A stretch of DNA of 64,000 nucleotides from the NCBI RefSeq assembly GCF_009914755.1, contig NC_060935.1; one strand, 5' to 3'. Origin of the DNA: the human T2T-CHM13v2.0 reference genome, Homo sapiens. Under the pieces are notes generated by a model, which had not been told where the DNA came from, did not search any database, and worked only from the letters and a program-made list of their open reading frames with translations. This document shows positions 9,500-37,821 of the stretch, piece after piece. The position numbers and the translations under genes are program-made. Positions within the stretch are counted from its first letter, which is position 1, and the number at the start of each line of letters is the position of its first letter.

Positions 9500-10040
9500 A
9501 CCTTACCCTGTCCAAATTCTGAGACAGTTTATAGTAGCAAAATTTTAGAAACAATTTAAACCATTAGCTATGAGTAAAGTATGCTAAGCCTCATAAATAA
9601 TATATAGCCATATAGAATACCTTATAGCATATAAATGAATAAAGTAGATGTACACAGATCAACATGGATGAATCACAATGTCATAATATCAAAGGAAAAA
9701 AATTAGCGTTGTATATAGCATAATACTTGTATACATTGAATAAACATAAGCAAACACATCACATGGCAATCATGTACATGTATACATAGAGGGTGAATTG
9801 GGAGAACTCACATCCAGCTCATCTTGGAGAATTTCAGGTGGTTGATGAAGACTGTGCCAATTATTAAAAAATAAAGTTACATATAGGGGTTACTGAAAAA
9901 TAATTTTAAAAATCAGTATTTTTTTAAGTAGTAGGAAATAGGCATTTCTCATATTCTTTTTAGTTTGTTTTTAAACTTCTCACATTTTTTGAGTATATTC
10001 ACATAATGTCAAAAATAGAAAAGGTGCTCAAAAATATATA
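9500..10040 (+). mobile_element. Old L1ME-like 3' end
   Basis: aatgaataaagtagatgtacacagatcaacatggatgaatc motif typical of L1ME 3' UTR; boundaries approximate. Confidence 0.5.
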
Positions 10041-33805: not shown

Positions 33806-34121
33806 AATCACTTAATAATGGGTTATTTTAATAATCTTAGATCCATTTATTATATATTAGATTTTCTTTTAAAGTTACTATATGTGTATATGCATATATG
33901 TGTGTACGATGTGCATGCATTTGTTTGTATAACAACCACTATCACCAAAACTGTGTCCCCACTATGCCGGGTATCCAGCAGTGTGAGAATGGACTAATGC
34001 ATATGCATTTGTTTGCGTTCACATCATACACACATATATACATATACACATATAGTAACTTTAAAAAATGTAATATAAATGTATCAAAGATTATTAAAAT
34101 AACCCCAGTTATTAAGTGATT
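33806..34121. repeat. Long inverted repeat (~110-bp arms) with a templated insert at the centre
   Basis: 33806-33919 pairs with 34014-34121 (few mismatches, small indels); 13-bp direct repeat atgcatttgtttg at 33915-33927 and 34003-34015. Confidence 0.93.
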
Positions 34122-35529: not shown

Positions 35530-36227
<698 letters not shown>

Positions 36228-37821
36228 TTTAGGCCAACACAATCAAAGTATTGTCCTTTTAATAGCAATCAAAAATTATTAATGGGGAATTTTACATTTA
36301 TTGTACTTATTGTTCAAACTCTGTTGTGTATATCTTAAGGTCAGACTAGCCACGTTTCAAATGCTCAATACATGGCTAGTGTCTACAGTATTGGAACGGC
36401 ACGGGTAGAGACCATGGCTTAATTTGTAAGTTATAAAGTCTATTAAGACTGAGCCTTATGTCTTTCAGTTTGTACTCTATCACTGTGTTCATTATATTCT
36501 TTGGATGTGGGAAGACATGCTTTGTACAAATGGCTCCAGGAGTTTTCAAAATCTTTATGAAGACATGATGACATTCCAGCTACACTTAATAATTGCATTA
36601 TTGTTTACATATGATTGTGCTGCCCGAGTTCCCACTCAGTGGTCCAGTAACAACCACACTCACTAAAACTGCATCCCCACTGTGCTGGGTATCCAGCTTG
36701 AATTTATACAAGTTGTAGGTTGTGGTGATTTTCTTTCCCCACCAGTAGAGTAGAGAGATCTCCAGGATCCAGAAAAGGCCGTGCTTTAGGGGCAAGGGTG
36801 CAAGGAAAACCTGGACCAGAGTTTTCAGTTCTCAGTAACAACATTTTCAGTAATTCTTGTTCTAGAAATACAGGATATCAATGGCATTTTTCGCTATAGC
36901 CATCGTTTTGCTATAACATTTTATTACATTAGAATTATAATTTTCTCTAATATTAGATTAATTTGAAGAATAAGTATGGCTGCTTAAGGAACAAATACTT
37001 TGTTGGATCACTGGAACTATTATGCTGATTACAAGTTGAGGAATTTATATTTAGTCAATGCCCAAATGTATTATAACTTAAAATAACTCAGAGATGCCAC
37101 ATTTTTTCCATTTATATAATTTGAAGAAATATTTATTACTACTGAAATTTATGACCACATGGATCTTCCAGGGTACCTTATTAATTTTTAATTTATTCTT
37201 TAATAGAAAAAATGTGCACATGCTAATTTAGCTAATATGGTATAATGTGGAATGCCAAATGTTGTGTCTAACACAGAATCTTTTTCCTGGTAGCACTAAA
37301 GCCGCTTTATCAGGACAGACTCATATTCTGTCCTCAATTCCAAGATACACAATAATTGAATAAGAATATGTAATTATGTTTAGAAAATAAACCTTGAAGT
37401 GATACTTCATTGAATATATAGTTCGCTATAAGAAGGATTTCATTTTCAGAAGTGTAAAAATGTGAATAATAGGAAGAAAACTTTTATTTTCAAATCAAGA
37501 AACTATGTATTAATTGGGAAGTTAACACAGCAGCAGATGCTAATTTGCATAACTTGCCTTACTGTATTCTAGCAAAAGAAATATGTGAAATTCAAAACTG
37601 AACAATTTTGATGTGACCTGGAGTTAAGAAAGTTAGAGAGCATCTACATATTTAAGGAAAATGTCTGGGCATTTTTGAAGAGTAGTAATCGTGGAGGAGG
37701 AGAAACGTAACCAGAGAGCAAGGCAAGACATGTGAAAAAAATACACATTAATGATACTATAGGAATAATTGAATCTTCAAACACAAATTTTGATTTTATT
37801 ACGGGAGCATTGAAACTACAA

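What the first reader, a model, noticed from the sequence alone, without database searches (positions are those of the whole stretch)
33928..34002. The insert joins two downstream sites in permuted order, like the junction of a ~0.5-kb circle
Seen: 33930-33979 matches 36648-36697 at 43/50, ungapped, same strand; one difference is TG vs CA, consistent with an ancestral CpG decayed on opposite strands. It runs through a shared AGC into agcagtgtgagaatggactaatgca (33977-34001), the 3' terminus of a THE1D-type LTR, whose local copy is at 36201-36227 (16/18 over the first 18 nt). The insert therefore reads END then START of segment 36201-36697. Inference: this is the junction expected from a ~495-bp extrachromosomal circle closed at an AGC microhomology and partly captured at the palindrome tip, or from two successive template switches. 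If the local LTR was the donor, the event postdates its insertion.
Basis: partly seen in the sequence, partly recalled or inferred. Interest (0 to 1): 0.75.

Follow-up and report, generated by a model that had tools for sequence, protein, structure and literature searches.

The report
Patchwork repair insert at palindrome tip
A 75-base patch sitting at the tip of a DNA hairpin-forming palindrome in a CNTN5 intron was copied long ago from two spots about 2.5 kb downstream, which looks like an old scar of error-prone break repair, a kind of event already described in primate genomes.

Summary
33930-33979 matches 36648-36697 at 43/50. Genome-wide this sequence exists only at these two places, plus one partial relative on another chromosome. 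The last 25 nt are the 3' terminus of a THE1-like LTR. New here: the 75-bp insert (33928-34002) is bracketed by a perfect 13-bp direct repeat. That repeat spans the 6-nt loop of a genome-unique near-palindrome of about 228 bp. There is no poly(A), a TA filler sits at the left joint, and AGC lies at the inner joint.

Best reading (about 0.7): one ancient break or stalled fork at the palindrome tip, patched by synthesis copied from two nearby chromosomal sites. This is a chimeric "repair-mediated duplication" of the kind catalogued by Pace et al. 2009 (PMC2671141).

A 0.5-kb circle is not needed, because two break ends invading in crossed order also give the permuted order. The insert holds only about 15% of the supposed circle, so it fails the whole-circle criterion used for eccDNA insertions. 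The circle is not excluded (about 0.13). Primate orthologues, the decisive test, were not available. I class it as a new member of a known kind, of modest interest.

The parts
33806..33919 (.). Left arm of the near-palindrome
   Evidence: Inverted-repeat pairs I5, I2 and I1. blastn-short: 33806-33913 vs 34121-34020, 85.5% over 110 columns, E 8e-18. The arm has no other copy in the genome except its partner arm.
33915..33927 (+). Left copy of the 13-bp direct repeat ATGCATTTGTTTG (target-site duplication). It covers the last 5 nt of the left arm, the 6-nt loop TTTGTT and the first 2 nt of the right arm.
   Evidence: Family D3, 100% identical, spacing 88. Loop position taken from the DNA fold of the window with the insert and one repeat copy sliced out.
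33928..33929 (+). TA not matched in donor A: filler or slipped TA. The preceding G matches the G before donor A.
   Evidence: Junction contexts printed.
33930..33979 (+). Segment A: copy of 36648-36697
   Evidence: 43/50 ungapped. E 2e-7. Unique in the genome apart from the donor.
33977..33979 (+). AGC shared by the end of A and the start of B (3-nt microhomology at the inner joint)
33977..34002 (+). Segment B: the last 25 nt of a THE1-like LTR plus one T. The likely donor is 36201-36228.
   Evidence: 27 of 29 other family copies match at 19-24/25; gapped alignment to the local copy; 21,659 such termini genome-wide.
33996..34009 (.). Perfect 14-nt palindrome created at the right-hand joint (AATGCAT|ATGCATT), equally readable as a tandem ATGCAT. 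Unexplained.
   Evidence: Self reverse-complement hit 33996-34009.
34003..34015 (+). Right copy of the 13-bp direct repeat
   Evidence: family D3.
34014..34121 (.). Right arm of the near-palindrome
   Evidence: 84% to the left arm.
35878..36227 (+). THE1-like solo LTR. Its last 27 nt (36201-36227) are the probable donor of B.
   Evidence: family hits cover query 1 to about 350..
36648..36697 (+). Donor of segment A. Its 3' part (from 36674) continues into an old sequence with a relative on another chromosome, so this copy is the original and the insert is the copy.
   Evidence: L016 homology spans 36674-36714, 83% over 41 nt.

Best explanation
A single ancient germline event. The near-palindrome at 33806-34121 then carried one copy of ATGCATTTGTTTG around a 6-nt loop. 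It broke, or stalled a fork, at its hairpin tip.

The lesion was repaired by short stretches of DNA synthesis templated on nearby chromosomal DNA (the sister chromatid or the same molecule). 50 nt were copied from 36648-36697 and about 25 nt from the end of the LTR at 36201-36228.

There are two routes to this. The two 3' ends may have invaded the same neighbourhood at points 420 bp apart in crossed order, so that their syntheses ran away from each other and had to be joined at the AGC/GCT microhomology. Alternatively one end made serial template switches.

The 13-bp duplication comes from a staggered break across the loop, with both overhangs kept or filled in, or from re-copying 13 nt on return to the original template. 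TA at the left joint is filler.

Shown: the anatomy, the local origin of A, the family identity of B, and the absence of retrotransposition marks. Inferred: the break at the tip, the enzymes, which of the two routes was used, and that B came from the local LTR.
For: 1. A is local and the donor copy is the original. There are exactly two genomic copies. The donor continues into sequence that has a C13 relative, while the insert also carries the 26 nt upstream of that homology.

2. B is most likely local.
- A same-strand family terminus within 500 bp either side of donor A is expected by chance in about 0.35% of cases (10,761 x 1000 / 3.117e9). That count is a lower bound on family size.
- The insert and the local copy both read AATG where none of the 28 sampled copies that show a terminus has G.
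- The extra T at 34002 equals the first flank base of the local LTR.

3. Break-repair signatures are present: a perfect 13-bp direct repeat bracketing the insert, a 2-nt filler, 3-nt inner microhomology, and no poly(A)/poly(T).

4. The duplicated 13-mer straddles the loop of a hairpin of -74.9 kcal/mol (238 nt, DNA parameters). [quoted passage not shown]

5. There is precedent in PMC2671141 (sections read).
- 824 proximal (<5 kb) repair-mediated duplications were found in the human genome.
- 20 acceptors were chimeras of two donors, 5 of them with the second donor 289-3,432 bp from the first.
- The figured example has 3-nt complementarity at the inner joint plus filler.
- Target duplications of 4-21 nt occurred in 6 of 39 proximal cases, fillers were 1-68 nt, and none of the 39 had poly(A).
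Against: - The outer joints have only 0-1 nt of microhomology, so annealing-primed invasion is not evident there.
- B stops at the LTR's last base plus one. That is unexpected for a copy that could stop anywhere (roughly 1% post hoc), and I have no good reason for it.
- The right joint forms a perfect 14-nt palindrome that the model does not predict.
- By sequence, B is closer to many distant family copies (up to 24/25) than to the local one (18/25 ungapped, 23/26 gapped). A local origin therefore needs 4-5 later changes in the local LTR end.
- The model predicts the same sequence as copying from a circle, so the sequence cannot prove it.
- No orthologous empty site was seen.
Confidence: 0.7

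Rival explanations
1. Circle template or capture. Segment ~36201-36697 was excised as a ~0.5-kb extrachromosomal circle closed at AGC. A break at the palindrome tip was then repaired by copying about 75 nt across the circle junction, or by ligating a resected linearised circle.
For: - Cyclically permuted order, same strand and same chromosome, with one 3-nt microhomology at the junction.
- A 2026 preprint classes AB->BA insertions as eccDNA-derived. It finds 82 of 327 source-resolved polymorphic insertions of this type, 79/80 in source orientation and 78/80 within 10 Mb.
- Under circle templating a junction-spanning copy needs only two joints with the target, not three switches.
Against: - Only 75 of ~497 bp (15%) of the supposed circle is present. 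The preprint's criterion is >=95% source coverage, so the defining feature is not met.
- Partial capture needs templated synthesis anyway, so the circle is an extra entity.
- Permuted order has about a 50% prior under chromosomal templating.
- The right edge of the patch coincides with the LTR end, which a circle does not explain either.
Confidence: 0.13
2. A is local but B comes from some other THE1-like element (DNA or cDNA end), caught as filler in the same repair.
For: - 21,659 genomic termini lie within 3 mismatches of the commonest sampled form.
- 27 of 29 sampled copies match B better than the local copy does without gaps.
- B ends at the natural LTR terminus, as a free element end would.
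- In PMC2671141, 15 of the 20 chimeric acceptors had their second donor on another chromosome.
Against: - A family terminus lies 420 bp from donor A on the same strand, with a chance of about 0.35-0.7%.
- AATG is shared with the local copy only.
- The trailing T equals the local flank.
Confidence: 0.06
3. RNA-templated patch. The CNTN5 intron transcript (same strand as both donors) was reverse-transcribed with a template jump, by LINE-1 ORF2p or another reverse transcriptase. A variant of this idea is a back-spliced circular RNA.
For: - A 13-bp target duplication is in the LINE-1 range.
- Both donors and the insert are on the gene's sense strand (hub annotation).
- Templated insertions derived from RNA are described (PMC5110952, abstract only).
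Against: - There is no poly(A) or poly(T) at either end.
- The flanks do not fit the 5'-TTTT/A-3' preference named in PMC5110952 (GTGC/ATGC on one side, TTTG/CG on the other).
- Neither strand offers GT...AG at the would-be back-splice joint in today's sequence (read contexts; inference).
- All 39 proximal duplications inspected by Pace et al. lacked poly(A) and were assigned to DNA repair.
Confidence: 0.04
4. The palindrome and the patch were made together. One replication-based event produced the inverted duplication (fold-back) and the central templated patch, rather than an insertion into an older palindrome.
For: Arm-to-arm identity (85.5%) is about the same as A-to-donor identity (86%), so the ages could be equal.
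Against: - The perfect 13-bp direct repeat and the clean 6-nt loop after removing the insert plus one repeat are what a simple insertion into an existing hairpin tip predicts. A one-step origin needs an extra direct re-copy.
- Arm identity can be kept up by gene conversion, so it is a poor clock.
Confidence: 0.07

Closest known systems
[quoted passage not shown]
   Same: - The insert is at least 50 bp and its only other genomic copy lies <5 kb away on the same chromosome.
- There is no poly(A).
- It has filler, microhomology and a target duplication within their 4-21 nt range.
- It has two donors a few hundred bp apart joined at 3 nt, as in their figured example.
   Different: - The acceptor is the tip of a unique palindrome, not an annotated transposon, which is how their screen found acceptors.
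- The second piece is only 25 nt and would have counted as 'filler' in their scheme.
- The locus was not found in their Table S1 by coordinate prefix. The hg18 position I searched for was converted from recalled offsets.
- Whether any of their five proximal chimeras has donors in crossed order was not read.
eccDNA-mediated AB->BA germline insertions (bioRxiv 10.64898/2026.09.03.749254)
   Same: Cyclically shifted block order, same chromosome, same orientation, nearby source.
   Different: - Source coverage is 15%, not >=95%.
- One block is transposon-derived and not unique.
- The event is ancient and fixed in this assembly rather than polymorphic.
- Their Table S2 could not be seen, because bioRxiv supplements are closed.
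FoSTeS / MMBIR templated insertions at rearrangement joints (mechanism names recalled and seen in search listings; MMB-TI definition read in PMC8421209 passages)
   Same: Short templated stretches from several nearby templates, microhomology at switches, and a small duplication on return.
   Different: - MMB-TIs as defined there are inverted copies of templates within 100 bp. Here the copies are direct and 2.2-2.7 kb away.
- No accompanying copy-number change is present.
Palindrome-centre breakage (PATRR translocations; PMC4940405)
   Same: An AT-rich near-palindrome whose lesion maps to the centre or loop.
   Different: - The outcome is a local patch with duplication, not a translocation with small deletions.
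- The arms are about 110 bp at 85% identity today, which is far less perfect than active PATRRs.

Membership tests
Repair-mediated duplication (Pace et al. 2009) | Inserted sequence of at least 50 bp found at only one other place in the genome | tested here: met
   Segment A: (only itself at <=3 mismatches in 50); the donor 24-mer hits itself, the insert and one C13 site, reversed control 0. BLAST-type searches found only self, but they also missed the known 43/50 pair, so they are weak evidence.
Repair-mediated duplication (Pace et al. 2009) | Donor within 5 kb on the same chromosome | tested here: met
   Donor A is 2,718 bp downstream and donor B 2,224 bp downstream.
Repair-mediated duplication (Pace et al. 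2009) | No poly(A)/poly(T) tail. Breakpoints show microhomology, filler, deletion or target duplication. | tested here: met
   No A/T run at either end. TA filler and AGC microhomology. 13-bp duplication.
Repair-mediated duplication (Pace et al. 2009) | Empty orthologous site in an outgroup | not testable with these tools
   No primate genome other than this assembly is held.
eccDNA-mediated AB->BA insertion (2026 preprint) | [quoted passage not shown] | tested here: met
   The insert reads 36648-36697 and then 36201-36228.
eccDNA-mediated AB->BA insertion (2026 preprint) | At least 95% coverage of the source interval by the insert | tested here: not met
   75 of about 497 bp, or 15%.
eccDNA-mediated AB->BA insertion (2026 preprint) | Single unique source, not overlapping transposable elements | tested here: not met
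   Block B is an LTR terminus with 21,659 near-matches in the genome. Block A is unique.
LINE-1-mediated insertion (class 1 templated sequence insertion; PMC5110952 abstract) | Target-site duplication | tested here: met
   13 bp, perfect.
LINE-1-mediated insertion (class 1 templated sequence insertion; PMC5110952 abstract) | Poly(A) tail and insertion at 5'-TTTT/A-3' | tested here: not met
   No poly(A)/poly(T). The flanks read GTGC/ATGC and TTTG/CG.
MMB-TI (MMBSearch definition, PMC8421209) | Inverted copy of a template within 100 bp of the insertion | tested here: not met
   Both pieces are direct copies from 2.2-2.7 kb away.
THE1-like (MaLR) LTR 3' terminus, for segment B | Matches the last 25 nt of family copies, which are followed by unrelated flanks | tested here: met
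   27 of 29 other copies match at 19-24/25. 21,659 genome matches to the commonest sampled form, reversed control 0. The subfamily (THE1D) was not testable.
circRNA-derived retro-insert | The joint coincides with canonical splice donor and acceptor sites in the source | tested here: not met
   No GT after 36697 or AG/GT pairing in any AGC register on either strand, read from the contexts (present-day sequence only).

The most novel reading that the evidence does not exclude
The patch is a fossil of a ~0.5-kb extrachromosomal circle, closed at AGC, whose junction served as the repair template for a break at a hairpin tip in the primate germline tens of millions of years ago. That would make it an ancient, fixed, partial counterpart of the AB->BA insertions now reported as human polymorphisms. 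It would also link small circles to the repair of palindrome breaks.
Probability: 0.12. Interest if true: 0.5.

Novelty: new member of a known kind. Interest (0 to 1): 0.3.

Why it matters
It is a clean, fully resolved scar of one complex mutational event. The break site (a hairpin loop, marked by a 13-bp duplication), both templates and all three joints can be read.

Such cases help calibrate how often permuted two-piece patches arise without circles. That bears on current claims that AB->BA insertions mark eccDNA reintegration.

No function is suggested. The site lies deep in a CNTN5 intron, with no exon, no RefSeq functional element (hub annotation) and no RNA family above threshold.

Tried and rejected
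- BLAST-type whole-genome searches with the insert, the donor region and the palindrome arm returned self hits. One search also returned the partner arm, and an old repeat at 36266-36411. They missed the known 43/50 pair, so they cannot show rarity. I therefore used mismatch-tolerant pattern searches.
- Is segment A part of the LTR element's interior? Rejected. DNA after the LTR carries a different old repeat. A has no match beyond 11-13-mers in 37 other fetched loci, including flanks of 29 family copies.
- The 12-13-nt identity of 33951-33963 to the 5' start of several family LTRs is judged chance. The donor copy does not share it.
- A P-nucleotide (hairpin-opening) origin of AATGCAT at the right joint was considered because of the 14-nt palindrome. 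It is neither supported nor excluded. The same bases fit the LTR terminus at 6 of 7.
- A switch at the shared CATTT (36226-36230 and 33918-33922) predicts a product lacking bases that are present. It would also shorten the direct repeat to 10 nt. I set it aside in favour of the perfect 13-mer.
- Back-splice and LINE-1 models were rejected on missing splice sites, poly(A) and nick site.
- Rfam gave nothing above gathering score. A sub-threshold mir-297 hit (31.8 vs 90 bits) reflects the TG/TA-rich arm.
- Pace et al. Table S1 has no row with coordinates beginning 9902-9905, 9953 or 9966.

Full report
**What is there**

The window lies in an intron of CNTN5 (hub annotation). At 33806-34121 there is a near-palindrome.
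- Its arms are 33806-33919 and 34014-34121. They are 85.5% identical over 110 aligned columns, and the inner 53 nt are 92% complementary.
- A whole-genome search with the left arm returns only the arm itself and its partner. It is therefore not a detectable member of a repeat family.

**Checking the observation**

- Segment A. 33930-33979 equals 36648-36697 at 43 of 50 positions, without gaps, on the same strand. In the window this is the only significant match of the insert (E 2e-7). The binomial chance over all offsets is about 8e-13.
- The AGC overlap and the TG/CA difference are as described.
- Segment B. 33977-34001 matches 36201-36218 at 16/18. On its own that is not significant (E 3.1).
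- The LTR. 35878-36227 belongs to a high-copy LTR family. There were 6495 first-look candidates and 40 scored, and the 39 non-self hits were 76-80% identical. Their alignments end around query position 350, which is 36227.
- Among the 29 other copies fetched, 27 carry a best match of 19-24/25 to the insert's 25-mer at their 3' end, followed by unrelated flanks. One copy is truncated before the terminus.
- The commonest sampled form of this terminus has 21,659 matches at up to 3 mismatches in the genome. The reversed control has 0.

B is therefore the family's 3' terminus. The subfamily name could not be checked.

**Is the 50-mer a dispersed repeat?**

- At up to 3 mismatches the insert's 50-mer occurs once in the genome.
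- The last 24 nt of the donor copy, at up to 3 mismatches, occur at the donor, at the insert (2 mismatches) and at one place on contig C13 (3 mismatches). The reversed control gives 0.
- The C13 site shares 83% identity with 36674-36714 over 41 nt and nothing upstream of 36674. The donor's 3' part therefore belongs to an old low-copy sequence that runs on past the copied segment.
- The insert also carries the 26 nt upstream that only the local site has.

This fixes both the direction (36648-36697 is the original) and the locality of A. The BLAST-type genome searches found only self hits. They also missed the known 43/50 pair, so I give them little weight.

- The insert is bracketed by a perfect 13-bp direct repeat, ATGCATTTGTTTG, at 33915-33927 and 34003-34015.
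- Slicing out the insert and one repeat copy leaves a 238-nt stretch that folds as one long hairpin. Its energy is -74.9 kcal/mol with DNA parameters, and its loop is the 6 nt TTTGTT. The 13-mer consists of 5 nt of the left stem, the loop and 2 nt of the right stem. The target duplication therefore straddles the hairpin tip.
- At the left joint two bases (TA) have no counterpart in donor A. The base before them (G) matches the base before the donor.
- There is no poly(A) or poly(T) at either end.
- At the right joint the last bases of B and the first bases of the repeat form a perfect 14-nt palindrome at 33996-34009. B stops at the LTR's last base plus one T. That T equals the first flank base of the local LTR.

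**Was the local LTR the donor of B?**

Sequence alone does not say.
- Ungapped, the local copy matches at 18/25, and 27 of the 29 other copies do better.
- With gaps, the local copy gives 23 identities, 2 mismatches and gaps of 1 and 3 nt.

Three things favour the local copy.
- A same-strand terminus within 500 bp either side of donor A is expected by chance in about 0.35% of cases. This uses the 10,761 forward-strand matches. It would be perhaps twice that if more diverged copies are counted.
- Both the insert and the local copy read AATG where none of the 28 sampled termini has G.
- The trailing T matches the local flank.

A local origin needs 4-5 changes in the last 27 nt of the local LTR after the event. 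That is high but compatible with the LTR's overall decay (76-80% identity to other copies), given the small numbers. I put the local donor at roughly 0.9.

**Age**

A and its donor differ at 7 of 50 sites (14%, or 15.5% after Jukes-Cantor correction). Three or four of these are CpG-type transitions, as read. With recalled neutral rates of about 1-2 x 10^-9 per site per year, this means tens of millions of years, with very wide error. The 13-bp repeats being identical is not odd (0.86^13 is about 0.14).

**Mechanism**

The anatomy matches the repair-mediated duplications of Pace et al. 2009 (PMC2671141; abstract, sections 6 and 7 and supplement searches read).
- They found 824 duplications in the human genome with the donor <5 kb away and a median length of 147 bp.
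- None of the 39 inspected had poly(A).
- Breakpoints showed microhomology (2-9 nt), filler (1-68 nt) and, in 6 of 39, target duplications (4-21 nt).
- Twenty acceptors were chimeras of two donors. In five of these the second donor lay 289-3,432 bp from the first.
- The authors explain chimeras by the two 3' ends of a break invading different templates and re-annealing at a short complementarity, which is 3 nt in their figure.

Applied here:
- The left end copied rightwards from 36648.
- The right end copied leftwards from 36228.
- Because the two entry points are crossed, the two syntheses diverge and can only be joined by a chance microhomology, here AGC.
- The 'permuted order' is then simply crossed invasion, with a prior of about one half.
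- A single end making serial template switches (FoSTeS/MMBIR; names recalled and seen in listings) gives the same product.

The position of the duplication across the loop fits breakage at palindrome centres, as documented for human AT-rich palindromes (PMC4940405, passages). Which nuclease or polymerase acted is inference only.

**The circle reading**

A 2026 preprint (10.64898/2026.09.03.749254; abstract and sections 7 and 29 read) treats AB->BA insertions as eccDNA-derived.
- It finds 82 among 327 source-resolved polymorphic insertions. They are nearly always intrachromosomal and in source orientation.
- Our case shares order, strand and proximity with these.
- It fails their requirement of >=95% source coverage, since 75 of ~497 bp is 15%.
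- One block is a non-unique transposon end, which their filters remove.

A partial copy across a circle junction is possible, and it would need one switch fewer. It adds an entity, however, and predicts nothing that chromosomal templating does not. My rough weighing has two parts. The chance that a 75-nt copy of a 497-bp circle spans the junction is about 0.15. The chance that a second short patch comes from the same neighbourhood in crossed order is a few per cent. That favours the circle only a few-fold, against a low and unknown prior. I give it about 0.13.

**Other rivals**

- LINE-1 or other RNA-templated insertion lacks poly(A) and the nick-site preference (PMC5110952, abstract only).
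- Back-splicing finds no canonical sites on either strand in today's sequence.
- B from a distant family copy is disfavoured by location.
- A joint origin of palindrome and patch is possible, since the arm and A-donor identities are similar. It needs an extra step to explain the perfect direct repeat.

**What stays unexplained**

- Why B ends at the LTR boundary.
- Why the right joint is a perfect 14-nt palindrome (or tandem ATGCAT).

A hairpin-opening (P-nucleotide) origin and a switch at the shared CATTT were both considered. Neither fits cleanly.

**Verdict**

I class it as a new member of a known kind, a chimeric proximal repair-mediated duplication. It is notable mainly for sitting exactly on a hairpin loop.

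It is not in Pace et al.'s Table S1 by coordinate-prefix search (coordinates converted from recalled assembly offsets). That is expected, because their screen required the acceptor to lie in an annotated transposon. I found no paper naming this locus, but I ran no search aimed at it.

The decisive test, primate orthologues, could not be run here.

Noticed in passing
window 36266-36411: An old interspersed repeat directly after the LTR, with 7 diverged homologues elsewhere (71-84% identity). From memory it looks like a LINE-2 3' end. It shows that the DNA after the LTR is not the element's internal region.
   Followed up: partly
window 36674-36714; L016 (C13:54445421 region): A single diverged relative (83% over 41 nt) of the sequence that begins inside donor A and runs past it. 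Probably an ancient low-copy repeat of unknown family.
   Followed up: partly
window 35873-35877 and 36228-36232: The solo LTR 35878-36227 has no recognisable 5-bp target duplication (ATGGT before, TTTAG after). This may be decay or a past rearrangement at one edge.
   Followed up: no
window 35531-35812: Sub-threshold SRP-RNA matches (41.8 and 26.1 bits against a cutoff of 70) mark an Alu-like element with an A-rich tail just upstream of the LTR.
   Followed up: no
window 33996-34009: A perfect 14-nt palindrome (equally a tandem ATGCAT) created exactly at the joint between the insert and the right-hand target duplication. No model tried explains it.
   Followed up: partly
window 33951-33963: A 12-13-nt exact match to the 5' start of several family LTR copies (L046, L040 and others). 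The donor copy lacks it, so it is judged a chance match produced by CpG decay in the insert.
   Followed up: yes
L036 and L019 (C13:41665593-41668282): Two family LTR copies on the same strand, 2.3 kb apart, likely the two LTRs of one full-length element. Only noted.
   Followed up: no
window 33878-33935: A sub-threshold mir-297 match (31.8 bits against a cutoff of 90) caused by the TG/TA-rich palindrome arm. Not taken as a gene.
   Followed up: yes
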